Source: Escherichia phage PSa2. From it: DNA of 64,000 nucleotides. The stretch lies in the sequence record OL770310. The stretch is one strand, 5' to 3'. Position numbers and translations under genes: made by a program. Below are positions 17,570 through 38,719 of the stretch, piece after piece. How positions within the stretch are numbered: position 1 is the first letter of the stretch; every line of letters starts with the position of its first letter. Below the pieces are notes generated by a model that saw only the letters and a program-made list of their open reading frames with translations, ran no database searches and was not told where the DNA came from.

Positions 17570-17599
17570 TTTGATTCCTTCTCATCAATTTATAAAGTA

Positions 17600-17627
17600 A
17601 TTATACAGAAAACTAAGCATTTTAGCA
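17600..17627 (-). promoter_or_regulatory. sigma70 early promoter (TTGCTA-17-TGTATAAT)
   Basis: same architecture as promoter family. Confidence 0.55.
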
Positions 17628-17730
17628 AATGAAGTTTTAAAATAAAAGGCCTAAGCCTAGGCCCGTAAAGAAAGAGATAAGAACTACTATCCCTATTGCT
17701 ATAAATATCTCACGAGCCATGCCATCAAAA

Positions 17731-20069: not shown

Positions 20070-20100
20070 TGTGATACTCCCCTCATCAATTTATACATAT

Positions 20101-20130
20101 ATTATATCAAAATTTTTAGCAGAAAGCAAG
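20101..20130 (-). promoter_or_regulatory. sigma70 early promoter
   Basis: promoter family motif. Confidence 0.5.
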
Positions 20131-27327: not shown

Positions 27328-27553
27328 ACCACCAAGAACAAGAATCGCACAAGAAAATTTCTGTTTTCTCTATTGCCTGTCCAAGCAGTTCGTCTGCTTC
27401 ATCTTCGGTGATTTTCAAACTACAAACATCAGCAACACGTTTAACAATCATTCTGCCTGCTTCATGATAGGACATACAAGTCCCAACAACATCATGCTCA
27501 AGTACATGAACAGCACAGTCTAAGCGAGTTTTCATTTCAAAGCTCCTTATCAA
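27254..27553 (-). CDS. Cys-rich small protein
   Basis: 99-aa ORF. Confidence 0.45.
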   Translation of the reverse strand: MIRSFEMKTRLDCAVHVLEHDVVGTCMSYHEAGRMIVKRVADVCSLKITEDEADELLGQAIEKTEIFLCDSCSWWCEAHEHSFNDYDVCRDCKEDDEDE

Positions 27554-27564
27554 TTTATATAAAT

Positions 27565-27593
27565 ATTATACCAAGAAAAGAGGGTTTTAGCAA
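27565..27593 (-). promoter_or_regulatory. sigma70 early promoter
   Basis: promoter family motif. Confidence 0.55.
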
Positions 27594-27610
27594 ATGAATT
27601 ATTTACGAAA

Positions 27611-29025: not shown

Positions 29026-29208
29026 TAGATCTCCCTGATGTTAGAATTTGGCTCAGCTTTTTGTTAACCCAGAAGCAAGATAAAAACTGGGAGGCAGGCT
29101 GTTTATTAAGTGAATACCCGATAATCGCTCGTAGTCCGGCTTGTGGATTGATAGTCCCATTCAGTTTAATAAACACAGAGATCTGGCACAAAGGCCTGAT
29201 CTTATCTT

Positions 29209-29284
29209 TGGTAGTTAGTAGTGGATTTGAACCACTGTAGTCGCTCCGTATGAAGGAGGTGCATAACCTCTCTGCCAACTAACT
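29209..29284 (-). tRNA. tRNA, anticodon CAU (Met / fMet / Ile2 type)
   Basis: hand-folded: acceptor 7/7 Watson-Crick, T-arm AGTGG-TTCAAAT-CCACT, anticodon loop UUCAUAC, CCA encoded. Confidence 0.55.
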
Positions 29285-29380
29285 ATTATGTTTTACTAGA
29301 CTAAGTAAGTATTCTTTATACTCTTTAGACCAATTAGCTTTTTTAAACTTTCCTGGACGCATAGTCTTACTTCCTAAATT

Positions 29381-29457
29381 TGGTACTCCAGGAGGGATTT
29401 AAACCCCCGATCTCTCGGTTATCAGCCGAGTGCTTTAGATCGCTAAGCTACCGAAGC
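29381..29457 (-). tRNA. tRNA-Ile (GAU)
   Basis: hand-folded: anticodon arm CUCGG-CUGAUAA-CCGAG; acceptor stem has 3 G-U pairs. Confidence 0.5.
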
Positions 29458-29458
29458 A

Positions 29459-29665
29459 TTAACATTTAATTACAGAACGTTTACCATTTCTAGGCGCACC
29501 TGGAAGTCGTGCACGTTCTGCCATTCTTCGCTTAATCTTTGGGATATTTTCTAGTGTTTGTTCTTCAGGCTTAATACCTGAAACACTACACCACTGATTA
29601 CCATCCCATGCGGTAATGATCATAACACCATTACCCATAATCTTTTCTGTGAAAGTAATTCTCAT
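29459..29665 (-). CDS. hypothetical protein
   Basis: 68-aa ORF. Confidence 0.4.
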   Translation of the reverse strand: MRITFTEKIMGNGVMIITAWDGNQWCSVSGIKPEEQTLENIPKIKRRMAERARLPGAPRNGKRSVIKC

Positions 29666-29958
29666 TATAACAACTCGTCTAAGTAAGAGGTATACTGGTA
29701 TTTAGCTTCACCAGTTTTATCTACTTCGACTTCTGTTCTAGGTACTTTTCGTACCAGACCGTGAATCATCTTATATTGAATAGATTTAGATGGTTCGTGA
29801 TCTTTAGGAAAGACCTGCTTAACTGTAACTACTTTAAATCCCTCACGTGGTGTTAGTACAACAACTTGATCACCTTCTTTGATTTTCCAAGACTCAGGAA
29901 ATTCATAAGTGTAGCGTTGACCACCGGTAAGGAATATAACAGAAAGATAACGTTTCAT
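29665..29958 (-). CDS. hypothetical protein
   Basis: 97-aa ORF. Confidence 0.45.
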   Translation of the reverse strand: MKRYLSVIFLTGGQRYTYEFPESWKIKEGDQVVVLTPREGFKVVTVKQVFPKDHEPSKSIQYKMIHGLVRKVPRTEVEVDKTGEAKYQYTSYLDELL

Positions 29959-29988
29959 TTGGTTTTCCTCTCATTAATTTATACAAAC

Positions 29989-30018
29989 ATTATATCAAGA
30001 AATAAGAGGAAAGGCAAA
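29989..30018 (-). promoter_or_regulatory. sigma70 early promoter
   Basis: promoter family motif. Confidence 0.5.
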
Positions 30019-30032
30019 TGAATTTTTAAATT

Positions 30033-30107
30033 TGGTGCTCCCACCAGGAATCGAACCCGGTTCAGATGCTTACAAGGCAACTGCATCGCCAGCAATGCTT
30101 TAGGAGC
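30033..30107 (-). tRNA. tRNA-Thr (UGU)
   Basis: hand-folded: T-arm CCGGG-TTCGATT-CCTGG, loop CUUGUAA. Confidence 0.55.
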
Positions 30108-30274
30108 AATAAACCCGTTATTTCAACGGGATTTCTTTTTCAAATACAGGAGACTTATCAGACATTACTGTCATAGCCAACTGCTGTAGAAATTCGAATG
30201 AGAGTTTTAAACGTTCTTCGCCCAACTCAACCTCAACGCGCTTCATTCGTTTATCTACCTTTATCTTTAGATTA

Positions 30275-30496
30275 TCAGCCATCTTCGGGTTCTCTTTGCT
30301 CAGCTATTGCTAGCCAGTCTGGTAAAAGAAACTTAGTACGAAATTCTTCATATGTTTCTTCCGGATGAAAGCTATAGCCTTGCTTTTCATCATTTAATAA
30401 AACCGAACCGTCTTCCTGCTCATAAGCTCGGTATGTTTCACCAATAATTAAAACTCGCCTATTAGGGTTTTTATTACGAAACTCAAAAACGTCCAT
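30275..30496 (-). CDS. hypothetical protein
   Basis: 73-aa ORF. Confidence 0.4.
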   Translation of the reverse strand: MDVFEFRNKNPNRRVLIIGETYRAYEQEDGSVLLNDEKQGYSFHPEETYEEFRTKFLLPDWLAIAEQREPEDG

Positions 30497-30511
30497 AACG
30501 TTTCCTTAAAT

Positions 30512-30586
30512 TGGTGCGGGATACGAGAGTCGAACTCGTGTCTACTGGTTGGAAGCCAGTTATTCTAGCCACTGAACTAATCACGC
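30512..30586 (-). tRNA. tRNA-Gly (UCC)
   Basis: hand-folded: anticodon arm ACUGG-CUUCCAA-CCAGU; 3' half resembles bacterial tRNA-Gly. Confidence 0.6.
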
Positions 30587-30592
30587 ATAAAT

Positions 30593-30668
30593 TGGCTGGA
30601 GAAGGAGGAATCGAACCTACCATTAACGGAGTCAAAGGCCGTTGTGCTAACCGTTACACTACTCTCCA
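30593..30668 (-). tRNA. tRNA-Gln (UUG)
   Basis: hand-folded: loop CUUUGAC, 3' end CCAGCCA as in bacterial tRNA-Gln. Confidence 0.55.
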
Positions 30669-30674
30669 AGTATT

Positions 30675-30750
30675 TGGCTGGGATGCCACGGATCGAACGT
30701 GGAACCTTCGGAGTCAGAGGCCGACGATCTGCCAATTGATCTACATCCCA
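30675..30750 (-). tRNA. tRNA-Gln (CUG)
   Basis: hand-folded: acceptor 7/7, loop CUCUGAC. Confidence 0.55.
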
Positions 30751-30758
30751 ATAATTTT

Positions 30759-30959
30759 TTATTCTTCAGGAACCGTGGCTATTGGATCTGGTTCTTCTAG
30801 ACGTTTACCATTATGATCGACACGAATAATGCCACAACCTTCACAGATTACAACAGCACCATAGCCTTCTTTAACTTCGGCTTCTGTAATCAGACCAGAT
30901 AAATCACCAGTATCTTTGCCCCACATATCAATAGAGCATTCTTTGCAGAAATCAGCCAT
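30759..30959 (-). CDS. zinc-ribbon-like small protein (CxxC...CxxC)
   Basis: 66-aa ORF. Confidence 0.4.
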   Translation of the reverse strand: MADFCKECSIDMWGKDTGDLSGLITEAEVKEGYGAVVICEGCGIIRVDHNGKRLEEPDPIATVPEE

Positions 30960-30983
30960 ATTTTATTTCCTATTTAAGTTAAT

Positions 30984-31058
30984 TGGTGCATCCTCAGGGA
31001 ATCGAACCCCGATCGTAAAGTTCGTAGCTTTACATTCTTTCCGTTGAAATAAGGACGC
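30984..31058 (-). tRNA. tRNA-Arg (ACG)
   Basis: hand-folded: anticodon arm UAAAG-CUACGAA-CUUUA. Confidence 0.6.
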
Positions 31059-31064
31059 AATATT

Positions 31065-31141
31065 TGGGGTGGCTAGTGGAATTCGAATCCACATAGGCCT
31101 GATTCACAATCAGGATCATTAACCAATTATGATATAGCCAC
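31065..31141 (-). tRNA. tRNA-His (GUG)
   Basis: hand-folded: anticodon arm CCUGA-UUGUGAA-UCAGG, discriminator C. Confidence 0.6.
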
Positions 31142-31502
31142 AATTGAAAACTCGTAGGGTTAGCGAAACCATCCTCAAATAGTATTTTCTAGAATACTAA
31201 TCAAGTTATCTCCTATTGCACGAAGCTCAAGACGAGTACGAATTTTCAATTGTGGCGGCTCTCCGAAACTCATCACACTAACAACTAGTTGATTACACCT
31301 GGATTCTCGCCCAGGAAATTCTCTAGAAAGGTGCACCGTTACTCTTTGAGCCATTGAATATCAAGAAGCAGAAGGACTTGAACCTTCATGAGATAGACCA
31401 TTTATCTCAGCCTCGTTTTCGGGTATCTTATGAGGAGTGGATGTTCCCCTTACGCCCTTTAGGAAGCCCCGTCTACCGATTCCGGCATACTTCAAGAATT
31501 AT

Positions 31503-31706
31503 TTAAAACTTGTAACCTTCGGGAACCTTATCCTTAACACCAATATACTCAGCTTGGATGTAGTATGTTGGCACATGATCTTTAGGTAGATCTTTATTTA
31601 CATCATTAACTTCCATCAAGGCTTCGGCCTCGGTGTCAAATGGACGATACCAGATTTCACCACCCCAGCCACGTTCGCTTTCGGTATACTTAACAATGTG
31701 TTTCAT
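31503..31706 (-). CDS. hypothetical protein
   Basis: track ORF 31503-31757 trimmed to internal Met so it does not overlap the tRNA. Confidence 0.4.
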   Translation of the reverse strand: MKHIVKYTESERGWGGEIWYRPFDTEAEALMEVNDVNKDLPKDHVPTYYIQAEYIGVKDKVPEGYKF

Positions 31707-31724
31707 AAGGTTTTCCTTATTAGT

Positions 31725-31814
31725 TGGAGGAAGGTAATGGAGTCGAACCATCACCATATCGCTACAGCGGGCAGGTTTTCAAGACCTGTTACATACCACT
31801 ATGTCCTACCTTCC
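31725..31814 (-). tRNA. tRNA-Ser (UGA), long variable arm
   Basis: hand-folded: acceptor 7/7, loop CUUGAAA, ~90 nt. Confidence 0.55.
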
Positions 31815-31821
31815 AGTTGTT

Positions 31822-31914
31822 TGGCGGAAGAAGAGAGATTCGAACTCTCAAGCCTGCTTTCACAAGTCAGCCACTTTCCAAGCGGTTTTCGTCACCTAAT
31901 CGATTTGCTCTTCC
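31822..31914 (-). tRNA. type II tRNA, anticodon tentatively GGA (Ser)
   Basis: acceptor and T-arm (GAGAG-TTCGAAT-CTCTC) clear; anticodon arm assignment uncertain. Confidence 0.4.
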
Positions 31915-32088
31915 GTAGATCTTAGGATTAAATCATAAACCTCATTAGCGCATACTGGAAGTATGAGATTGTACATCTTTTGGTCGTACCTCTGACCATA
32001 TTCTATAAACACATACTCTTTAGTTAATGTATTAATAGCCAACCAGATATCAGTTACAGGAGTTTTCATCGTGATTTAATCCAATGTT

Positions 32089-32169
32089 TGGTAGGGATGG
32101 AGGGACTCGAACCCACACCCGAAGACTAGAACCTAAATCTAGCGCGTCTGCCAATTTCGCCACATCCCC
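32089..32169 (-). tRNA. tRNA-Leu (UAG)
   Basis: hand-folded: anticodon arm CUAGA-UUUAGGU-UCUAG. Confidence 0.45.
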
Positions 32170-32176
32170 ATTTTAT

Positions 32177-32395
32177 TTAGTTAGAAATAAATAATAATCC
32201 CGCAACAATGGAACCTACGCCACTGAATACCATTATCAGCATAGCTTCTAAGCTGATAAAGCGGACAGTATATGGAGCGCCCCAAGAATAATCAGTAAAG
32301 AAAGTTTTCTTTTCTTTAGCTAAATCTTTAACAATTCTAAAATAGATAGCTAGTGCTAAAGCTGCAAGAACTACAGAGGCTGCTAAGAATACCAT
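32177..32395 (-). CDS. small membrane protein
   Basis: 72-aa ORF, two hydrophobic segments. Confidence 0.4.
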   Translation of the reverse strand: MVFLAASVVLAALALAIYFRIVKDLAKEKKTFFTDYSWGAPYTVRFISLEAMLIMVFSGVGSIVAGLLFISN

Positions 32396-32415
32396 ATTAT
32401 TTCCTTAATTTGTTT

Positions 32416-32490
32416 GGTGGAGTCACTCAGAATTGAACTGAGTTCCACTGCTTGCAAGGCAGTAAGTTTAACCAAATAACCTATGACCCC
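32416..32490 (-). tRNA. tRNA-Ala (UGC)
   Basis: hand-folded: G3-U70 pair present, loop CUUGCAA. Confidence 0.55.
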
Positions 32491-32496
32491 GAATTT

Positions 32497-32570
32497 TGGT
32501 GGAGAAAGAGGGAGTTGAACCCTCGTCTTCTGCGTGCAAAGCAGATGTTCTACCATTAAACTATATCCCC
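32497..32570 (-). tRNA. tRNA, anticodon UGC by simplest fold (Ala-like, second copy)
   Basis: hand-folded: anticodon arm UCUGC-UUUGCAC-GCAGA, G3-U70; one acceptor mismatch. Confidence 0.45.
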
Positions 32571-32925
32571 AAAATCTTTAAGTTTACTAAGGCTATTAGC
32601 TCGGTGTGCGTACTGCCCTCAGACATTAGCCAGTAGAGAACAGCCGCTCTTCACAAACCCGATACACTATTCAGTTGCCGCTGAATCTAGTGGACTAATC
32701 TAGAACTTATTGCAAAGTATCCCCCGCCATTAGGGGTCTAATTGCAACTGTGCTTGTTGGCAGCCAGTCCTAGGTCGAGCTAATACCTTAGTGAACTAAA
32801 TTGATGGATATCAGACTAATTTTGCTACGGCGTTTATCCTGAGGATCTCTTTTTCGGTAGCTCTGCTAGTGTAGACGTCATACACCTGATATCTAGGCAG
32901 CTATTTTCACATCAATTTATATAAA

Positions 32926-32955
32926 TATTATAACAAGAAATTAAGCATCAAGCAA
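32926..32955 (-). promoter_or_regulatory. sigma70 early promoter
   Basis: promoter family motif. Confidence 0.5.
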
Positions 32956-33307
32956 GTACATTTTTAGCAATTTCTTGTAGTTCCTTAACGTCACTAACGA
33001 AAAGGTAGTCAGAGCTTCCAGAGTGCATACTCTGCATAACCACACCACCATCCGGTGCATCTTCTTTCAAGGTAAGTCCTAACCAGAACTCGGCAAAACT
33101 AGGTGTTACCTCACCTTGACTTGCCTTGAACACATCGCCTTCTGTGATCTCTTGACCAGTGGAGAGTCCCATGTATGGTACGTTCAGATCAATATCTTTG
33201 TAGAACTCAGCTAGATCTTGCTCGAAATCCCAACCTTTAGAGATAGCGAACTCCATTGTTACATGACCGAAATAGCCTTGAACCTTGCTTGATAATTGCA
33301 TTTGCAA
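32948..33307 (-). CDS. hypothetical protein
   Basis: 119-aa ORF. Confidence 0.5.
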   Translation of the reverse strand: MQMQLSSKVQGYFGHVTMEFAISKGWDFEQDLAEFYKDIDLNVPYMGLSTGQEITEGDVFKASQGEVTPSFAEFWLGLTLKEDAPDGGVVMQSMHSGSSDYLFVSDVKELQEIAKNVLA

Positions 33308-33326
33308 TTCCTTATTTTGAGTTAAT

Positions 33327-33400
33327 TGGTACTCGGTGATAGAATCGAACTATCGCAACCGCCGTGTAAAGACGGGGTTCTCCCATTAAACTAACCGAGC
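33327..33400 (-). tRNA. tRNA-Val (UAC)
   Basis: hand-folded: T-arm GATAG-TTCGATT-CTATC, loop UUUACAC. Confidence 0.55.
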
Positions 33401-33404
33401 AATT

Positions 33405-33482
33405 TGGTGGATTGCCTGGGATTCGAACCCAGAACTGACGGATTAAAGGTCCGCTACTCTTATCCAGTTGAGCTAGCAATCC
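33405..33482 (-). tRNA. tRNA-Lys (UUU)
   Basis: hand-folded: acceptor 7/7, loop CCUUUAA (C at position 33). Confidence 0.5.
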
Positions 33483-33868
33483 AATTTTTCTACTAATAAT
33501 TTAAAAGCATCTAGTACAGGTACTTCAAACCATTCTCCAGATACTCTATAATCTTTAAGAAGATTATGTAATTCTTTCTCTGTACGTCTTTTATCCGACG
33601 AAAATCTGAAATGGTATAGCTTGTAGTCTCTATTAGGTGAATAAGTTTGATAACTTGTTAACCTCTCATTCACATCTATAGTCATACCTATTTTATACAT
33701 GCCTGGCCATGCTGGATTACCAATTACATATACAAAACCTTCCGTTATAGGTATTTTATGCTCCCTTTTATACTTTAAGAGATTTAAGGCTGCCATTCGA
33801 TAACAGAATCTAAACTCTGAAGTTTTTAACTTACCTTCTTTACCTGAAATTTCGTTATATTTGCTCAT
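33473..33868 (-). CDS. T5orf172 / GIY-YIG-like domain protein
   Basis: 131-aa ORF; GFVYVIGNPAWPGMYKIGMT ... GEWFE pattern. Confidence 0.55.
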   Translation of the reverse strand: MSKYNEISGKEGKLKTSEFRFCYRMAALNLLKYKREHKIPITEGFVYVIGNPAWPGMYKIGMTIDVNERLTSYQTYSPNRDYKLYHFRFSSDKRRTEKELHNLLKDYRVSGEWFEVPVLDAFKLLVEKLDC

Positions 33869-34122
33869 ATAAGCTCTTATGAGCTTATCATCTATAATGA
33901 AGTTATCAGGAAGGTTTAAGGCAGCTAAAAACTTTATTAATTAGCATAGACTTCTTTAATAGAGTAAACTTTTAAGTAAGGATGATTAATACCAAATTCC
34001 GCCATCACTTCATTTTCATCTTTACCGTAATAGGCTAATGGATACTTCTTACGATCTTTACTAGAACGTAAATCACTTACTTTTAAACGAAATAATTTCA
34101 TTTCGAAATCCTTCTATTAAAT

Positions 34123-34200
34123 TGGAAGCGGGTGCAGGAATCGAACCTACCTCTTTCTAGCTTATGAGACTAGAGATCTCTACCAGAGATCTAACCCGCA
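34123..34200 (-). tRNA. tRNA-Met (CAU)
   Basis: hand-folded: D-arm GATC/GATC, loop CUCAUAA; one acceptor mismatch. Confidence 0.5.
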
Positions 34201-34206
34201 ATTGTT

Positions 34207-34284
34207 TGGTCTCCGTGGGAGGATTTGAACCCACGACCCTATCGCCCCAAACGAAACGCTCTGGCCAAACTGAGCTACACGGAG
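34207..34284 (-). tRNA. tRNA-Pro (UGG)
   Basis: hand-folded: acceptor 7/7, loop UUUGGGG. Confidence 0.55.
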
Positions 34285-34317
34285 AATATTCTTTGTTAAC
34301 TCACTTTATAAAATATA

Positions 34318-34346
34318 TTATACAGAGAATTAAGCTAAATAGCAAC
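34318..34346 (-). promoter_or_regulatory. sigma70 early promoter
   Basis: promoter family motif. Confidence 0.5.
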
Positions 34347-34593
34347 TACATTTTTTAATAAATTTACTTATTAGGTAAGTCACCGAGCTATCAACTCATG
34401 CTAGCGAGAAAGTTTGCGAGACCTTCTTTAAGTACTAGAACACACCCGCCGATGTGTCGGACTTACTTAATAAGTAAACTTTCGTTTACTTACACCTACC
34501 TGGTCGGGAGGATTTTCAGCGACTAGAACCGGCCGGAAACTCATCGCCTTGTTTATCTAGGAGTCCGTTCTCTAGGAAGCAGAAACCTAAATT

Positions 34594-34667
34594 TGGTGCG
34601 GTCGGAGGGAATCGAACCCTCAACTTTTGGTTGGCAACCAAAAATTATACCTTTTAACTACGAACGC
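34594..34667 (-). tRNA. tRNA-Gly (GCC)
   Basis: hand-folded: anticodon arm UUUGG-UUGCCAA-CCAAA. Confidence 0.55.
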
Positions 34668-34669
34668 AT

Positions 34670-34880
34670 AATAAGTCAATCTAGGCAGGACTTGAACCTG
34701 CTATCACTTGTGCGGATTTACGAGAACCATTCTTTCACTCGAATCGAACGAGCTTCTACCCTCGGCAAGCTGGTGTCCCCTCTCCACCACGCTAGAATGA
34801 TAATTAATGCCTGCTCCTTTGAATCAAGAAGTCCACCCCGGACTTTGGGTCTTTGCAGTACATCACGCTGCTCTGATGTT
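34670..34880 (-). other. tRNA-like segment: two canonical T-arm motifs but no pairing acceptor stems found
   Basis: minus-strand GCAGG-TTCAAGT-CCTGC and GCTCG-TTCGATT-CGAGT without matching 5' acceptor strands. Confidence 0.3.
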
Positions 34881-34956
34881 TGGTACACCCACTAGGACTT
34901 GAACCTAGAACCCTCCGCTTAAGAGGCGGTAGCTCTAACCATTGAGCTATGGATGT
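34881..34956 (-). tRNA. tRNA, anticodon CUU by simplest fold (Lys-like)
   Basis: hand-folded: T-arm CTAGG-TTCAAGT-CCTAG, loop CUCUUAA. Confidence 0.45.
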
Positions 34957-35032
34957 ATTATTATGTTTTGCAGTGCTCTAAATATAGACACTTCCCACGC
35001 GGTGGTTATCTATACCAGCGTCCTGCAAAAAT

Positions 35033-35109
35033 TGGCGCGACCGATGGGATTCGAACCCACATTTTCTCCCGTGACAGGGGAGTACCATTACCAAGCCAGC
35101 CCCGATCGC
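35033..35109 (-). tRNA. tRNA-Asp (GUC)
   Basis: hand-folded: anticodon arm CUCCC-CUGUCAC-GGGAG. Confidence 0.6.
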
Positions 35110-35118
35110 ATAATTTAT

Positions 35119-35304
35119 TTACTCAGTTTTGAGTTTTTCGATAGCTTCCTCAACCTCTTTTAGAGCTTCACGACGGGCATTCTGTTGCTGCATATCTTGA
35201 ATTAATGTCAGTTTTTGGTTTTCAATTTCTTGATCCCAAACCTTAATATTATTAATCAGACTATCACGATCAGCTTCTAGTCGAGCAATTGCACGAGTTG
35301 TCAT
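35119..35304 (-). CDS. small coiled-coil protein
   Basis: 61-aa ORF. Confidence 0.4.
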   Translation of the reverse strand: MTTRAIARLEADRDSLINNIKVWDQEIENQKLTLIQDMQQQNARREALKEVEEAIEKLKTE

Positions 35305-35405
35305 ATCTATTTCCTCAGTTATTAATGAAAATGGTATCTGTGACTGAATTCAATATCAGTAATGATAGCTGGTTGGCTACCGGTTTACTTAACTCTACAC
35401 AGAAT

Positions 35406-35488
35406 ATGGCGGGCCGTGTAGGATTCGAACCTACGTTGTCTTTCGACATGGATTAACAGTCCACCGCCAAACCGCTTGGCTAACGACC
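35406..35488 (-). tRNA. tRNA with anticodon GUU (Asn) and an unusual 13-nt variable arm
   Basis: hand-folded: anticodon arm GUGGA-CUGUUAA-UCCAU; variable hairpin GTCGAAAGAC. Confidence 0.4.
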
Positions 35489-35495
35489 CTAAAAT

Positions 35496-35571
35496 TTGGA
35501 CGACCGCATGAGATTCGAACTCACATAAGGAGGTTTTGCAGGCCTCCGCCTAAGCCATTCAGCCAACGGTC
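35496..35571 (-). tRNA. tRNA, anticodon tentatively GCA (Cys), enlarged anticodon loop
   Basis: acceptor and T-arm clear; anticodon stem GGAGG/CCTCC encloses a 9-nt loop. Confidence 0.35.
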
Positions 35572-35750
35572 GAGTTATCTTGCTTTTCGAGATTAGTAAA
35601 CTCTAGATCTTTAGAATGTCCTATAGATCTAGCATAATAGCCATCTCCAGCATCATAGCCTGATTTACCACACTTACACATCTTAAACTCGCGTAAACGT
35701 GTAAATATATGTTCAGAACCACAACACTTAAATTTAACTAGCTTTTTCAT
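35559..35750 (-). CDS. Cys-rich small protein
   Basis: 63-aa ORF; 3' end overlaps tRNA, true extent uncertain. Confidence 0.35.
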   Translation of the reverse strand: MKKLVKFKCCGSEHIFTRLREFKMCKCGKSGYDAGDGYYARSIGHSKDLEFTNLEKQDNSTVG

Positions 35751-35989
35751 CCAACACGCTCCGGCAGGTCTTCCAGTTTATATTCAGTAGCCACATTAGC
35801 AGCATCTAGTAACAAACCCATATGTTTAAGAATTCTAGTGATAGCCTCGCCTTCTGCTTCTTCTACAAAGCAGCGTAGTTGCATGAAGTCAATACCACCA
35901 TCCATACCAGAGAAAATGTTAAGTAAGCGAAGCATTACCAGCTTACGTTCTTTCAATTCTTGTTCTGTCATGTTGCTTCTCCAGTTCAA
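35747..35989 (-). CDS. hypothetical protein
   Basis: 80-aa ORF. Confidence 0.45.
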   Translation of the reverse strand: MNWRSNMTEQELKERKLVMLRLLNIFSGMDGGIDFMQLRCFVEEAEGEAITRILKHMGLLLDAANVATEYKLEDLPERVG

Positions 35990-36000
35990 TTTATGAAATA

Positions 36001-36030
36001 ATTATACAGAACTTTAAGCGGTTAAGCAAC
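36001..36030 (-). promoter_or_regulatory. sigma70 early promoter
   Basis: promoter family motif. Confidence 0.55.
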
Positions 36031-36309
36031 TACATTTTTCAGAAATATGATGCCTTTCTTTTTCTTCTTATACTTCCACGTTAACGGGTTCTGTCTATTA
36101 TGAACGCTTGAGATCTTTGTCTCGTCAAAGTTCTTCAATACCATGTAATCACAGGCCAACTGTTCTAGTGGAATGTGATCTCCGTCAAAAGCGTAAACGT
36201 AAGGCTGTTGACTGGCACGATAATGATAGACTTTGTTAATTCTGCGTTTCAGTGACTTATCCGCACAGTAAATAAAGAAGTTTTCAGGATGCATCAGCAT
36301 CTCCTTCAA
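36022..36309 (-). CDS. hypothetical protein
   Basis: 95-aa ORF. Confidence 0.45.
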   Translation of the reverse strand: MKEMLMHPENFFIYCADKSLKRRINKVYHYRASQQPYVYAFDGDHIPLEQLACDYMVLKNFDETKISSVHNRQNPLTWKYKKKKKGIIFLKNVVA

Positions 36310-36311
36310 AT

Positions 36312-36386
36312 TGGTGCACCCTGTTCGAATTGAACGAACCTCTCAAGCTCTTCAGGCAAGCGCTAATCCATCTCAGCTAAAGGTGC
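36312..36386 (-). tRNA. tRNA-Phe (GAA)
   Basis: hand-folded: T-arm GTTCG-TTCAATT-CGAAC, loop CUGAAGA; weak anticodon stem. Confidence 0.45.
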
Positions 36387-36392
36387 AAATAT

Positions 36393-36470
36393 TGGCAAAC
36401 CTACTAGGACTCGAACCTAGACCGTACGGTTTTGGAGACCGACATGCTGTCCAGTAACACTCTAGGAATG
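36393..36470 (-). tRNA. tRNA-Trp (CCA) candidate
   Basis: anticodon arm UCGGU-CUCCAAA-ACCGU resembles bacterial tRNA-Trp; acceptor pairing poor, 5' end uncertain. Confidence 0.35.
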
Positions 36471-36477
36471 CAGAAAT

Positions 36478-36554
36478 TGGCGTCCTGTGCGGGGATCGAA
36501 CCCGCAAATCCTACCTTGAAAGGGTAGTGACTTTACCAGTTTGTCTAACAGGAC
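36478..36554 (-). tRNA. tRNA-Glu (UUC)
   Basis: hand-folded: acceptor 7/7, T-arm GCGGG-TTCGATC-CCCGC, loop CUUUCAA. Confidence 0.6.
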
Positions 36555-36561
36555 TTAAATT

Positions 36562-36652
36562 TGGTGTTGGATGATGGAGTCGAACCACCCGAGACCCTTC
36601 CGAGTCGGCAGATTTACAGTCTGCTTCGCTACCTCTACGATACTAATCCAAC
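36562..36652 (-). tRNA. tRNA-Tyr (GUA), long variable arm
   Basis: hand-folded: acceptor 7/7, anticodon arm GCAGA-CUGUAAA-UCUGC. Confidence 0.6.
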
Positions 36653-36777
36653 ATATTTGAATGAAAAGTAAGTCGGTTAAACTCAAGGTGGAATATTTCA
36701 GGATTTCCTGACTTTACCCATAAAAGTAACTCGCTTAGTTACTTCTCATTCAGATATGTTTTCCAAATTAGATAACT

Positions 36778-36807
36778 ATTATATCAAGTTTTGAAGGACT
36801 GAGCAAG
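36778..36807 (-). promoter_or_regulatory. sigma70 early promoter
   Basis: promoter family motif, degenerate. Confidence 0.4.
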
Positions 36808-36842
36808 TCAAATTTTAAAGAACTTGCTCAGTGCTACATCAG

Positions 36843-37118
36843 TTACTCGAAGCTAGGAGTGACACTCAGTTTGAATGGAAGCTCGAACACTTCTTCATAA
36901 TCATCATTGAGCGTAATTACACGACCTTCTAGCTTAGTCATGGTGATTTCGATATCAGCCCTTGCATCAGGAGCCATACCAGCTTCCACACATTTAGCTT
37001 TAACTTCCGGCAGAAGTTCTACATCGTAGAAATAAAGCCATTCAATCTCACCTTCCCAGCCACCCCAGGATTTACAAACAGCACTTTCAACACCAGTTGC
37101 AGTAACACGTTTTGACAT
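36843..37118 (-). CDS. hypothetical acidic protein
   Basis: 91-aa ORF. Confidence 0.5.
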   Translation of the reverse strand: MSKRVTATGVESAVCKSWGGWEGEIEWLYFYDVELLPEVKAKCVEAGMAPDARADIEITMTKLEGRVITLNDDYEEVFELPFKLSVTPSFE

Positions 37119-37148
37119 TCGTTAACTCCTTCATCAATTTATATAACT

Positions 37149-37179
37149 ATTATAACAGAAATCTTAAGTAAAAAGCAAG
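37149..37179 (-). promoter_or_regulatory. sigma70 early promoter
   Basis: promoter family motif. Confidence 0.5.
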
Positions 37180-37208
37180 TACATTTTTAAAATTTCTGCT
37201 TGGAGGAG

Positions 37209-37460
37209 TTAAACTCCTGATTCTTCAGCCAGATCAAGCCCAACCAACGTGATTGCCATAATAGCCGCGCCATGTTCTTTCTCTCCTAGCTCTTTGGCTT
37301 GAGTGAGAATATTAAGGAATTGCTTTTGAAAATCTGCAACTTCTTCTGTCATGCCTGCTTCAGCAATGATTCCTTTCAGCATAAAGCGTTGTGCCGTAAT
37401 TTCAGAATTAGCCATTTGTTTTCTCCAGTTGTTTAGAATGTAAGCCAAACTTAGGATCAT
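37209..37460 (-). CDS. hypothetical protein
   Basis: 83-aa ORF. Confidence 0.45.
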   Translation of the reverse strand: MILSLAYILNNWRKQMANSEITAQRFMLKGIIAEAGMTEEVADFQKQFLNILTQAKELGEKEHGAAIMAITLVGLDLAEESGV

Positions 37461-37566
37461 AGCGATCGTAAGTAGTACCGTTAGTTGAAGCCTTGATGCT
37501 ATGAAAACGACAGTACATAAATTTACGTAGTGCTTTCTTAATAGCTTTCATTTTATTTCCTTAATT

Positions 37567-37643
37567 TGGTAGGGGTGGTGGGATTCGAACCCACAAAACC
37601 TGAATTTTAAGTCCAGTACCTATGCCAATTCGATTACACCCCC
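37567..37643 (-). tRNA. class I tRNA with anticodon UAA by simplest fold (Leu-decoding)
   Basis: hand-folded: T-arm GTGGG-TTCGAAT-CCCAC, anticodon arm CUGGA-CUUAAAA-UUCAG, short variable loop. Confidence 0.4.
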
Positions 37644-37651
37644 ATGTAATC

Positions 37652-38005
37652 TTAGCGAATCTCTAAACCCTGGAAATATCGAGGGAATGGAGAGCCAACT
37701 TCAAAATTGATGCCCCAATTAAGTTCAACGAGTTCAGATTTATTAAGATCTAGGCCATTACCTTCAAAGATATAGCCGTAAACCGCAGGGAACATAGCTG
37801 CTAGATCTTCCATATCGGAATGAGCATTGTGTTCTTCACGGAACTGCTCAAACTCTTCAAAGAACTTTTCTAGGAAGAACTCAGGTACGATGAACGTTAC
37901 CACATCAGTAGAATCATCGGTACGATACACCGTAGCTTGGAACAAGCCAACACCTAAAAGGTTTATTGCCGGAGTAGTAAAAATATCCATCTTAGCCTCG
38001 CTCAA
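37652..38005 (-). CDS. hypothetical protein
   Basis: 117-aa ORF. Confidence 0.5.
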   Translation of the reverse strand: MSEAKMDIFTTPAINLLGVGLFQATVYRTDDSTDVVTFIVPEFFLEKFFEEFEQFREEHNAHSDMEDLAAMFPAVYGYIFEGNGLDLNKSELVELNWGINFEVGSPFPRYFQGLEIR

Positions 38006-38177
38006 TGTCTAGACAAATTGCATATTCAGGGTTGATACCAGTACCTTTACATGTAGGACATTCCCATTCTCTACAGAAAATATCCCCAGGTTCTGCATCA
38101 TCCTGCCTACCACCACCATGACAATCCTTACACCGACATTCTTCTAAGGCTTTCTTCATTTCATAGAATCTAGACAT
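37992..38177 (-). CDS. zinc-finger-like small protein
   Basis: 61-aa ORF; CRCKDCHG ... CPTCKGTG. Confidence 0.4.
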   Translation of the reverse strand: MSRFYEMKKALEECRCKDCHGGGRQDDAEPGDIFCREWECPTCKGTGINPEYAICLDIERG

Positions 38178-38194
38178 ATAGTCTCCTAGTTAAT

Positions 38195-38272
38195 TGGTGG
38201 CTCCCGGAGGATTCGAACCTACCTACCTTTCGCTTATGAGGCGACGGCTCATACCAAATGAGCTTGAGAACC
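38195..38272 (-). tRNA. tRNA, anticodon CAU (Met / fMet / Ile2 type)
   Basis: hand-folded: D-arm GCTC/GAGC, loop CUCAUAA. Confidence 0.5.
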
Positions 38273-38277
38273 AAATT

Positions 38278-38371
38278 TGGAGGAAGATGCCAGATTCGAA
38301 CTGGCACACCGTGTCTCCACAGCTACTGGCTGTTTAGCAAACAGCTCCCTTACCTTTAGGGTTAATCTTCC
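38278..38371 (-). tRNA. tRNA-Ser (GCU), long variable arm
   Basis: hand-folded: acceptor 7/7, anticodon arm GCUGU-UUGCUAA-ACAGC. Confidence 0.5.
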
Positions 38372-38386
38372 GAATTTATGAATATA

Positions 38387-38414
38387 TTATACAGAAAATT
38401 TCGGCATTAAGCAA
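38387..38414 (-). promoter_or_regulatory. sigma70 early promoter
   Basis: promoter family motif. Confidence 0.55.
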
Positions 38415-38422
38415 GTGAAATT

Positions 38423-38719
38423 TTACTGAACACTGCACTGATACACTTGTTTGATACGTGTCACTGACTTCTTAGTTGGATTGATAGAAGAACCTTGCCA
38501 CCAACGTGATTCTGAGCTGAGAACAGCACCAGGAACAGCTTGTTCTTTTGGCAGAACAATATCAAAACATTGCTCACCCATATTATCTTTAATGTGTGAC
38601 CAAATATCCAAAGTAAATCGTTCTAACTTATTACAAACCTGAACTTGACAAAGTTCCTGTTGCGGAGCAGCAAATACAGAAGTAGATACTAGAGTCAATG
38701 CAAGTACAGTGCGTTTCAT
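38423..38719 (-). CDS. secreted small protein (signal peptide)
   Basis: 98-aa ORF. Confidence 0.45.
   Translation of the reverse strand: MKRTVLALTLVSTSVFAAPQQELCQVQVCNKLERFTLDIWSHIKDNMGEQCFDIVLPKEQAVPGAVLSSESRWWQGSSINPTKKSVTRIKQVYQCSVQ

What the first reader, a model, noticed from the sequence alone, without database searches (positions are those of the whole stretch)
32571..32925. ORF-free 0.35-kb segment inside the tRNA cluster
No tRNA-like T-arm and no ORF of 60 aa or more; relatively GC-rich; transcribed from the promoter at 32926-32955 ahead of the two UGC-anticodon tRNAs. Candidate non-tRNA small RNA co-transcribed with tRNAs.
Basis: seen in the sequence. Interest (0 to 1): 0.4.

Follow-up and report, generated by a model that had tools for sequence, protein, structure and literature searches.

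The report
Phage T5 "RNA2H" stable RNA homolog
The gene-free stretch is the counterpart of "RNA2H", a stable non-coding RNA of unknown function annotated in phage T5; it sits at the start of a tRNA transcription unit, and comparison across T5-like phages shows a conserved, intricately folded RNA.

Summary
Window 32571-32925 has no tRNA, no Rfam match and no ORF longer than 24 aa inside it. It lies on the tRNA (minus) strand between a sigma-70 promoter (-35 32955-32950, -10 32932-32927) and two tRNA-Ala(UGC) genes.

It is not anonymous. The homologous T5 segment is annotated in GenBank as misc_RNA rna2H, "stable RNA with unknown functions", downstream of promoter P13b and upstream of tRNA-Ala.

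Covariance models find the RNA in Tequintavirus, Epseptimavirus, Sugarlandvirus, Eos, and Pectobacterium, Proteus and Providencia phages. No Rfam family covers it.

Covariation supports this fold:
- a 22-bp closing stem with a bulged G;
- a short helix P2;
- two variable hairpins, P4 and P6;
- two adjacent hairpins, PB and P5, whose loops pair with one upstream strand, giving a double pseudoknot.

The window's copy also carries a roughly 95-nt structured expansion of the 5' leader hairpin and a long P4 variant.

The T5 annotated ends lie in the closing stem with a 2-nt 3' stagger. This suggests RNase III excision, as for rRNA precursors (inferred). T5 deletion mutants lacking the region are viable, so the RNA is accessory. 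Its function remains unknown.

This is a new member of a known but uncharacterised RNA.

The parts
32927..32955 (-). P13b-like early promoter: -35 TTGCTT (32955-32950), 17-nt spacer, -10 TATAAT (32932-32927). Inferred transcription start near 32920.
   Evidence: Read from the sequence. Window 32910-32976 is 91% identical to the annotated T5 promoter P13b. Annotated as 'Putative P13b-like' promoter in Salmonella phage S114. The start site is inferred, not measured.
32798..32920 (-). 5' leader domain P0. Stem AAAUUGAUG (32918-32910) with CAUCAAUUU (32806-32798), extended by GAUAUCAG (32893-32886) with CUGAUAUC (32814-32807), enclosing a branched expansion of about 95 nt. T5, SuperGirl and sal2 have only a short hairpin here.
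   Evidence: Alignments A1 and A2. The insert is found in 84 phage records at 95% identity or more, always at this site. One compensatory series U-A -> U.G -> C-G occurs in the extension helix among 7 phages. The fold z-score alone is weak, -1.2.
32581..32797 (-). RNA2H core, 217 nt, enclosed by closing stem P1.
   Evidence: Covariance models R1 and R2 score it 215 and 214 bits, E about 1e-60. blastn to T5 rna2H gives 78% identity over 135 nt starting at 32785. On the R2-fitted alignment A7, 42 of 56 nested pairs have changes on both sides, 96% of cells are paired, and 0 of 500 shuffles reach this.
32591..32785 (-). Predicted mature stable RNA (195 nt), by transferring the ends annotated for T5 rna2H (172 nt). 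The 23-nt difference is the longer P4 hairpin.
   Evidence: T5 annotation 31808-31979 mapped through alignment A1 and blastn. The ends fall in P1 with a 2-nt 3' stagger. Inferred, not measured here.
32776..32797 (-). P1 5' strand (AGUUCACUAAGGUAUUAGCUCG).
   Evidence: Pairs with 32581-32603. 98% of cells are paired, and 12 of 22 pairs have changes on both sides across 9 lineages.
32581..32603 (-). P1 3' strand (CGAGCUAAUA-G-CCUUAGUAAACU), with a bulged G present in all nine aligned sequences.
32772..32775 (-). P2 5' strand (ACCU). Pairs with GGGU at 32657-32660.
   Evidence: All 4 pairs have changes on both sides and 97% of cells are paired. Complementary but different sequences in 8 lineages.
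32765..32770 (-). PK1 5' strand (GGACUG). Pairs with UAGUCC at 32692-32697, which lies in the loop of hairpin PB.
   Evidence: 100% paired in 9 sequences, and 3 of 6 pairs have changes on both sides.
32759..32762 (-). PK2 5' strand (UGCC). Pairs with GGCA at 32676-32679, in the loop of hairpin P5. It is followed by the conserved A-rich linker AACAAGCAC.
   Evidence: 35 of 36 cells of the four core pairs are paired, and 3 of the 4 pairs have changes on both sides. The partner strands differ between lineages: UGCC/GGCA, ACCA/UGGU, AAUCA/UGAUU, UACCA/UGGUA, CGCCAA/UUGGCG, GCCAA/UUGGC. Combined shuffle test p about 0.001.
32709..32748 (-). P4, a variable peripheral hairpin. The window has the long variant; T5 has a 4-bp stem with a 7-nt loop.
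32686..32704 (-). PB hairpin (UCUAG ... CUAGA). Its 9-nt loop carries the PK1 3' strand.
   Evidence: Different complementary sequences in the lineages compared. 94% paired, and 4 of 5 pairs have changes on both sides, on the model-fitted alignment. Combined shuffle p about 0.004.
32670..32685 (-). P5 hairpin (UUCAG-CGGCAA-CUGAA). Its loop carries the PK2 3' strand.
   Evidence: 5 of 5 pairs have changes on both sides. Among T5-type variants the loop's GGCA is invariant while neighbouring loop bases vary.
32604..32654 (-). P6, a long irregular hairpin. It occurs in two alleles among T5-like phages, and the pairing is kept in both.
   Evidence: 11 of 14 pairs have changes on both sides.
32571..32580 (-). 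10-nt spacer (UAAAGAUUUU) between P1 and the 5' end of tRNA-Ala.
   Evidence: Sequence and ARAGORN.
32415..32570 (-). Two tandem tRNA-Ala(UGC) genes (32497-32570 and 32415-32490), the first tRNAs of the unit that starts with this RNA.

Best explanation
The segment is the 5' part of an early tRNA transcription unit of a T5-like phage. It encodes the homolog of T5 RNA2H, a stable non-coding RNA.

Transcription from the P13b-like promoter starts near 32920 on the minus strand. It first makes a leader hairpin, P0, which here carries a structured expansion of about 95 nt. It then makes a 217-nt domain closed by a 22-bp stem, P1, followed after 10 nt by two tRNA-Ala genes.

Inside P1 the RNA folds into a compact core. 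One contiguous strand (GGACUG-GC-UGCC) pairs with the loops of two neighbouring hairpins, PB and P5, forming two pseudoknots. An A-rich linker follows. Two variable hairpins, P4 and P6, project outward.

The RNA is most likely cut out of the precursor by RNase III within P1, and separated from the tRNA by RNase P. This is the way rRNAs are excised from stems formed by their flanks. The excised RNA then persists because it is tightly folded.

Its role is accessory. It most likely acts in trans as a folded particle that binds a protein or another ligand of the infected cell, for instance a host RNA-processing, translation or defence factor. It probably does not act as a base-pairing sRNA.

Shown here: homology to rna2H, synteny, the promoter, the fold, and the taxonomic spread. 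Inferred: the RNA ends, the RNase III step, trans action and the kind of target.

Confidence by step: identity as the RNA2H homolog and a conserved RNA fold, about 0.95; RNase III excision, about 0.5; a trans-acting role of its own, about 0.6. The overall figure is for the statement as a whole.
For: Identity:
- The T5 and phage 5 records annotate the homologous stretch as rna2H, a stable RNA, between P13b and tRNA-Ala.
- The window aligns to it throughout.

Fold:
- On alignment A5, 29 of 63 pairs have changes on both sides and 97.7% of cells pair. Pairing drops to 30-42% when partners are slid by 1-3 columns.
- With the revised nested structure, 42 of 56 pairs have changes on both sides and 96.3% of cells pair, with 0 of 500 shuffles reaching this.
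- PK1 is 100% paired and the PK2 core 35 of 36 cells paired, each with 3 covarying pairs, on an unfitted MAFFT alignment of 9 sequences.
- All helices are complementary but differ in sequence across 8 lineages.
- G-U pairs fix the strand as the tRNA strand.

Breadth: homologs occur in Sugarland, Eos, Pectobacterium DU_PP_V, Proteus PL1 and PM135, and Providencia PSTCR5 and PR1, always in the tRNA cluster on the tRNA strand.

Processing: the T5 annotated ends lie between G12|U13 and after C-C opposite G11-G12 of P1. That is a 2-nt 3' overhang geometry in a 22-bp duplex.

Not a riboswitch-type leader: no terminator-like element follows, and P1 encloses the whole domain.

Accessory role: viable T5 mutants delete 29191-32442 or 30661-38625, both of which include rna2H (PMC11464382).
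Against: - No expression or end-mapping data for this phage were available. The basis of the T5 annotation's ends is not stated in the record.
- RNase III cleavage is inferred from geometry only.
- No function, partner or phenotype is known. The deletion mutants show no requirement in laboratory E. coli.
- PB, P5, PK2 and P2 rest on roughly eight lineages. The strands were partly hand-assigned. Alignment A7 is fitted to the model and contains two spurious reverse-strand rows.
- In T5-type sequences an alternative extension of P5 (CACUA/UAGUG) competes with PB in energy-based folding.
- The 5' expansion has almost no sequence diversity, so its fold rests on a single compensatory pair.
Confidence: 0.6

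Rival explanations
1. Purely cis-acting leader. The structure exists only to guide processing and protect the 5' end of the tRNA precursor. The 'stable RNA' is a long-lived by-product with no activity of its own.
For: It always sits at or near the 5' end of a transcription unit of the tRNA cluster, directly after a promoter in T5-like, Sugarland and Eos phages. P1 looks like a processing stem. A second promoter-proximal element closed by a 22-bp stem precedes tRNA-Asp in Proteus phage PL1. Loss of the region is tolerated.
Against: A processing signal needs only P1. Yet the interior keeps a double-pseudoknot core with covariation across at least six genus-level lineages, while the peripheral hairpins vary freely. 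In Proteus PL1 the RNA is followed by a protein-coding gene, not directly by a tRNA.
Confidence: 0.25
2. Ligand-sensing cis-regulator of the riboswitch type, controlling read-through into the tRNAs and downstream genes.
For: A compact pseudoknotted fold with conserved unpaired stretches, sited in a 5' leader.
Against: There is no expression platform. No terminator-like hairpin with a U-tract and no sequestered ribosome-binding site follows; the one terminator-like site found lies elsewhere and on the other strand. P1 closes the domain independently of downstream sequence. T5 annotates it as a discrete stable RNA. No Rfam riboswitch matches.
Confidence: 0.05
3. A small protein gene, or the decayed remnant of one.
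For: Some phage records carry 'hypothetical protein' calls over the homologous stretch, for example S132 and Sugarland.
Against: The longest internal ORF in the window is 24 aa and has no convincing ribosome-binding site. The Sugarland ORF is on the opposite strand and is not conserved in the window. Substitutions are compensatory in helices rather than codon-periodic.
Confidence: 0.02
4. A DNA-level element, such as a recombination or homing target or a miniature mobile element bounded by the 22-bp inverted repeat, rather than an RNA.
For: The flanks form an inverted repeat. The P0 insert and the P4 and P6 alleles assort independently among phages, and HNH homing endonuclease genes populate T5 tRNA clusters.
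Against: G-U wobble pairs, which are C-A on the other strand, and covarying pseudoknots are signatures of RNA rather than DNA. There is a single copy per genome at a fixed site, with no second copy in the window.
Confidence: 0.03

Closest known systems
Phage T5 RNA2H (gene rna2H, locus T5s04, NC_005859 31808-31979) and 'RNA 2H' of Salmonella phage 5 (AJ604531)
   Same: Homologous sequence. Same position between promoter P13b and tRNA-Ala(UGC), and same strand. Same P1, P2, PK1, PK2, PB and P5 core.
   Different: The window's copy has a 23-nt longer P4 hairpin, the other P6 allele, and, as in phage 5, an expansion of about 95 nt in the leader hairpin upstream of the annotated RNA. It is followed by two tRNA-Ala genes instead of one.
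Other T5 stable RNAs of the tRNA region (RNAI, RNAIII, RNAIV; tRNA-like RNA1, RNA2, RNA3)
   Same: Small stable RNAs of unknown function, co-transcribed with tRNAs. Most have homologs in this window.
   Different: No sequence or model similarity to RNA2H. Models R1 and R2 find only one copy in the window. RNA1 and RNA2 are described as tRNA-like, whereas RNA2H has no T-arm.
Phage T4 stable RNAs C and D (species 1 and 2) in the T4 tRNA cluster. Recalled from memory, not tested here.
   Same: Stable RNAs that are neither tRNA nor mRNA, co-transcribed and processed with phage tRNAs, dispensable, and of unknown function.
   Different: Unrelated phage family. No sequence comparison was made.
rRNA precursor stems and T7 early RNA sites processed by RNase III (established knowledge)
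   Same: A duplex of 20 bp or more, formed by sequences flanking a structured RNA. The annotated product ends are staggered by 2 nt.
   Different: Cleavage by RNase III has not been shown for RNA2H.
Bacterial Y-RNA-like YrlA, and the large phage-associated GOLLD and ROOL RNAs
   Same: Structured RNAs often encoded next to tRNAs in phages. YrlA also has a long terminal stem (recalled from memory).
   Different: No Rfam model, these included, matches the segment even at E<=10. There is no T-arm, and the size and architecture differ.

Membership tests
T5 RNA2H (rna2H) stable RNA | Sequence homology to the annotated T5 / phage 5 rna2H | tested here: met
   blastn gives 78% identity over 135 nt, E 3e-28. 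Full-length alignment. Covariance-model scores of 214-215 bits for the window and 213-229 bits for T5.
T5 RNA2H (rna2H) stable RNA | Position: downstream of promoter P13b and upstream of tRNA-Ala(UGC), on the tRNA strand | tested here: met
T5 RNA2H (rna2H) stable RNA | Shared secondary structure maintained by compensatory changes | tested here: met
T5 RNA2H (rna2H) stable RNA | Accumulates in infected cells as a discrete stable RNA | not testable with these tools
   Only the GenBank annotation 'stable RNA with unknown functions' is available. No paper in the searched library describes it.
tRNA / tmRNA | Cloverleaf or tRNA-like domain detectable by ARAGORN or Rfam RF00005 / tmRNA models | tested here: not met
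   No call inside 32571-32925.
Any Rfam 15 family (including Y RNA/YrlA, 6S, GOLLD, ROOL, HEARO, riboswitches, self-cleaving ribozymes) | Covariance-model score at or above the gathering threshold | tested here: not met
   Nothing at gathering threshold. At E<=10 there are only chance-level hits, for example MIR5225 at E=8.
RNase III-excised, stem-enclosed RNA (rRNA-precursor type) | A duplex of about 20 bp or more, formed by the 5' and 3' flanks of the RNA | tested here: met
   P1 has 22 bp with one bulged G and is kept in all lineages.
RNase III-excised, stem-enclosed RNA (rRNA-precursor type) | Product ends inside the duplex with a 2-nt 3' overhang; cleavage dependent on RNase III | tested here: inconclusive
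   The T5 annotated ends have this geometry. The experimental basis of those ends is unknown, and enzyme dependence cannot be tested here.
Riboswitch / transcription-attenuation leader | An expression platform (intrinsic terminator or sequestered RBS) coupled to the aptamer | tested here: not met
   No terminator-like site on the minus strand between P1 and the tRNA. The spacer is 10 nt, UAAAGAUUUU.
Small protein gene | Conserved ORF with a start codon and ribosome-binding site | tested here: not met
   The longest internal ORF is 24 aa. ORFs annotated in other phages are not conserved.

The most novel reading that the evidence does not exclude
RNA2H is the founding member of an unrecognised class of compact, double-pseudoknotted phage RNAs. 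The class is conserved across Demerecviridae and has no Rfam family. The RNA would be excised rRNA-style from the head of tRNA operons and would act in trans on a cellular factor. Examples would be a decoy or inhibitor of a tRNA- or RNA-targeting defence nuclease, or a modulator of RNA processing or translation. This would make it a non-tRNA partner of the phage tRNA counter-defence arsenal.
Probability: 0.25. Interest if true: 0.7.

Novelty: new member of a known kind. Interest (0 to 1): 0.45.

Why it matters
T5's small stable RNAs are still annotated 'unknown functions', and no Rfam family covers them. T5 tRNAs have recently been shown to neutralise host defences such as PARIS and retron Eco7 (PMC11464382, PMC11555353). 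The structured RNAs co-transcribed with those tRNAs are therefore obvious but unexplored candidates for related roles.

This analysis adds three things:
- RNA2H is conserved across many Demerecviridae genera.
- There is now a testable fold, a stem-closed double pseudoknot, with exact coordinates.
- There is a processing hypothesis, RNase III excision.

Together these make targeted mutagenesis, probing and pull-downs straightforward. The work also flags likely mis-annotated 'hypothetical proteins' lying over this RNA in several phage records.

Tried and rejected
- **Known RNA and protein classes.** Rfam at gathering and at permissive thresholds, ARAGORN and ORF listing identified no known RNA family, tRNA or protein gene in the segment.
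- **Promoter and terminator scan.** It missed the promoter because the -35 hexamer matches only 3 of 6 positions. It found no terminator.
- **First covariance model (R1).** It treated PK1 as a nested helix and added two small helices, A5 columns 34-37/45-47 and 109-110/135-136. These show no covariation and were dropped once more divergent homologs revealed hairpin PB and the loop pairings. R1 also mis-aligned 'GGCG' of the Proteus RNA as P2; it is the P5 loop.
- **Steric objection.** I first thought PB and PK1 were mutually exclusive, reasoning from H-type pseudoknot loop lengths. I dropped the objection because fully paired hairpin loops occur in kissing complexes. This is reasoning, not a test.
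- **Searches for further relatives.** Pattern scans of IMG/VR (four scans), one of GTDB genomes and one of metagenomes, each followed by model searches, found no homolog outside T5-like phages. The remaining pattern matches were chance.
- **Host homolog.** No match in 5,426 complete E. coli genomes.
- **Literature.** Seven literature searches found no paper on RNA2H in the held library.
- **Paralogs.** No second copy was found in the window.

Full report
**What is there**

The window is from a T5-like phage. The segment plus its promoter (32571-32947) is 98% identical to Salmonella phages S114 and SP_Thor and to Obesumbacterium phage Ob_P. S114, fetched as L001, is classified in Epseptimavirus. 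The window carries 29 tRNA genes, all on the minus strand.

The flagged stretch 32571-32925 lies between tRNA-Ala(UGC) (32497-32570) and a 119-aa ORF (32948-33307). It contains no tRNA or tmRNA. It has no Rfam match at gathering threshold or at E<=10. No ORF longer than 24 aa lies within it.

GC is 0.423 for the whole stretch and 0.47 for its 3' two-thirds. The non-tRNA DNA of the cluster has 0.37.

On the minus strand a strong promoter is readable: TTGCTT (32955-32950), 17 nt, TATAAT (32932-32927).

**Identity**

blastn finds the segment in 508 phage records, all T5 relatives. In the T5 reference record the homologous stretch is annotated misc_RNA rna2H (T5s04, 31808-31979, minus strand), 'stable RNA with unknown functions'. 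It lies between 'promoter P13b' and tRNA-Ala(UGC). The record for Salmonella phage 5 (AJ604531) carries the same annotation.

The window's promoter region (32910-32976) is 91% identical to P13b. T5 rna2H aligns from window 32785.

**Anatomy**

Alignment with T5 and other phages splits the 355 nt into three parts.

1. A 5' leader hairpin, P0. In this phage, phage 5 and 82 other records it carries an expansion of about 95 nt (32798-32920).
2. A 217-nt core (32581-32797).
3. A 10-nt spacer before the tRNA.

The insert is nearly invariant. Its one informative position changes U-A -> U.G -> C-G in the predicted helix GAUAUCAG/CUGAUAUC. The phage 5 record, whose sequence also carries the insert, places rna2H after it.

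**Fold of the core**

RNAalifold on eight sequences gave 63 pairs, 29 of them with compensatory double changes. On 31 distinct sequences 97.7% of cells pair, against 30-42% when partners are slid by 1-3 columns, and 0 of 500 shuffles reach this.

A covariance model then found much more divergent copies:
- Klebsiella phage Sugarland and phage Eos, which were already in the alignment.
- Pectobacterium phage DU_PP_V.
- Proteus phages PL1 and PM135.
- Providencia phages PSTCR5 and PR1.

All lie in the tRNA cluster on the tRNA strand.

These copies revised the model.
- The helix first drawn as nested (GGACUG/UAGUCC) has its 3' strand in the loop of a hairpin, PB. The PB stem differs in sequence between lineages: UCUAG/CUAGA, CGGA/UCCG, GCGG/CCGC, UUCCG/CGGAA, GGGA/UCCC, GGG/CCC and GUGAGA/UCUCAC.
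- The loop of the next hairpin, P5, pairs with the bases just 3' of the first strand: UGCC/GGCA, ACCA/UGGU, AAUCA/UGAUU, UACCA/UGGUA, CGCCAA/UUGGCG, CGCCA/UGGCG and GCCAA/UUGGC.

On an unfitted MAFFT alignment of nine sequences:

| Helix | Cells paired | Pairs with changes on both sides |
|---|---|---|
| P1 | 98% | 12 of 22 |
| PK1 | 100% | 3 of 6 |
| PK2, four core pairs | 35 of 36 | 3 of 4 |

A second model using PB and P5 as nested helices scores the distant lineages higher. Examples are 66.5 against 52.3 bits for PSTCR5 and 39.7 against 29.1 bits for PL1. It was, however, built from more sequences, so the scores are not strictly comparable.

On its alignment 42 of 56 pairs have double changes and 96.3% of cells pair. 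That alignment is fitted to the model and includes two spurious reverse-strand rows.

Simple shuffle tests of local complementarity give combined p of about 0.004 for PB and 0.001 for PK2. Independent local energy folding recovers PB plus P5 in five of eight lineages. In T5-type sequences an extension of P5 competes with PB.

G-U pairs fix the RNA strand as the tRNA strand.

The architecture, 5' to 3', is:
- P1 5' strand (22 bp in all, with a bulged G);
- P2 5' strand;
- PK1 5' strand, then PK2 5' strand;
- an A-rich linker;
- P4, a variable hairpin;
- PB, with the PK1 3' strand in its loop;
- P5, with the PK2 3' strand in its loop;
- a linker;
- P2 3' strand;
- P6, a variable long hairpin;
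- P1 3' strand.

**How it probably works**

The promoter directly precedes the RNA. In Sugarland and Eos, P1 starts within a few bases of the expected transcription start. The RNA is therefore the first element of a tRNA transcription unit.

The T5 annotated ends fall inside P1. The 5' end comes after G11-G12, and the 3' end comes after the two C's that pair with them. This is a 2-nt 3' overhang in a 22-bp duplex. That is the RNase III signature, and rRNAs are released in the same way from stems formed by their flanks (established knowledge).

Transferred to the window, the mature RNA would be 32785..32591, 195 nt. This step is inferred. RNase P at the tRNA-Ala 5' end would complete the separation.

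A processing signal would need only P1. The interior nevertheless keeps a covarying double-pseudoknot core across several genera, while P4, P6 and the P0 tip vary or swap alleles. This argues that the excised, folded RNA is itself under selection.

No expression platform follows, so a riboswitch-like role is unlikely. There is no conserved single-stranded 'seed', so a base-pairing sRNA is less likely than a particle that binds a protein or ligand.

T5 mutants deleting 29191-32442 or 30661-38625 are viable (PMC11464382). The RNA is thus accessory under laboratory conditions, like the phage tRNAs whose value appears only against particular host defences. What it binds or does is unknown.

**Comparison and novelty**

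Membership in the RNA2H family is met on homology, synteny and structure. Accumulation as a stable RNA cannot be tested here.

The RNA is not a tRNA, a tmRNA or any Rfam family. No homolog was found in:
- 5,426 complete E. coli genomes;
- the GTDB genome pattern hits;
- metagenome or IMG/VR hits other than T5-like phages.

No paper on RNA2H was found in the held library.

The finding is therefore a new member, with two expansions, of a known but uncharacterised phage RNA. The fold and the taxonomic breadth are, as far as I could check, not described in the sources available to me.

Noticed in passing
window 31143-31248, 31353-31496, 34410-34461, 34675-34799, 35332-35404 (all minus strand): Homologs of other annotated T5 stable RNAs are present: RNAIII (95% identity), RNA1 (81%), part of RNAIV, RNA2 (90%) and RNA3 (95%). 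Neither Rfam nor ARAGORN detects any of them. RNAI gave no match, leaving 31249-31352 unexplained.
   Followed up: partly
L085 (Proteus phage vB_PMC-PL1) 10578-10793, minus strand: A second element with the same layout. A T5-type promoter (…TTGATATAAT…) is followed by a stretch of about 216 nt closed by a 22-bp stem (GAUGUAUUUAAGAAUCAAGCCC / GGGCUUGAUUCUUAAAUACAUU), and then immediately by tRNA-Asp. It matches the RNA2H model only through the stem (12 bits). Stem-closed RNAs at the head of tRNA units may be a general design in these phages.
   Followed up: partly
window 32415-32490 and 32497-32570: There are two different tandem tRNA-Ala(UGC) genes where T5 has one. A weak 'tmRNA_permuted' Rfam hit (27 bits, below gathering) at 32357-32554 is produced by this pair.
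   Followed up: no
window 32604-32654, 32709-32748, 32798-32920, compared with L002, L004-L009: The P0 insert, the long or short P4 hairpin and the two P6 alleles occur in different combinations among Tequintavirus and Epseptimavirus phages. This indicates modular recombination inside the RNA gene, with pairing preserved.
   Followed up: partly
window 32948-33307 (minus strand): A 119-aa ORF lies between tRNA-Val and the promoter. It is absent from T5, where tRNA-Val abuts P13b, and present in the Epseptimavirus relatives compared (S114, chee130_1, SuperGirl, 118970_sal2). The -35 hexamer of the promoter begins immediately after its stop codon (32948-32950).
   Followed up: no
window, e.g. 37126-37197, 34301-34365, 29964-30033, 27543-27596, 20078-20129, 17574-17643 (minus strand): Sequences 75-92% identical to the T5 P13a and P13b promoters recur at least ten times in the window. 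They probably mark the early transcription units.
   Followed up: no
L003 (Klebsiella phage Sugarland) 1545-1733, plus strand; also S132, KKP_3822 and the K7_rec records: Public records annotate 'hypothetical protein' CDSs over the RNA2H homolog, in Sugarland on the opposite strand. Given the covariation these are probably spurious gene calls.
   Followed up: partly
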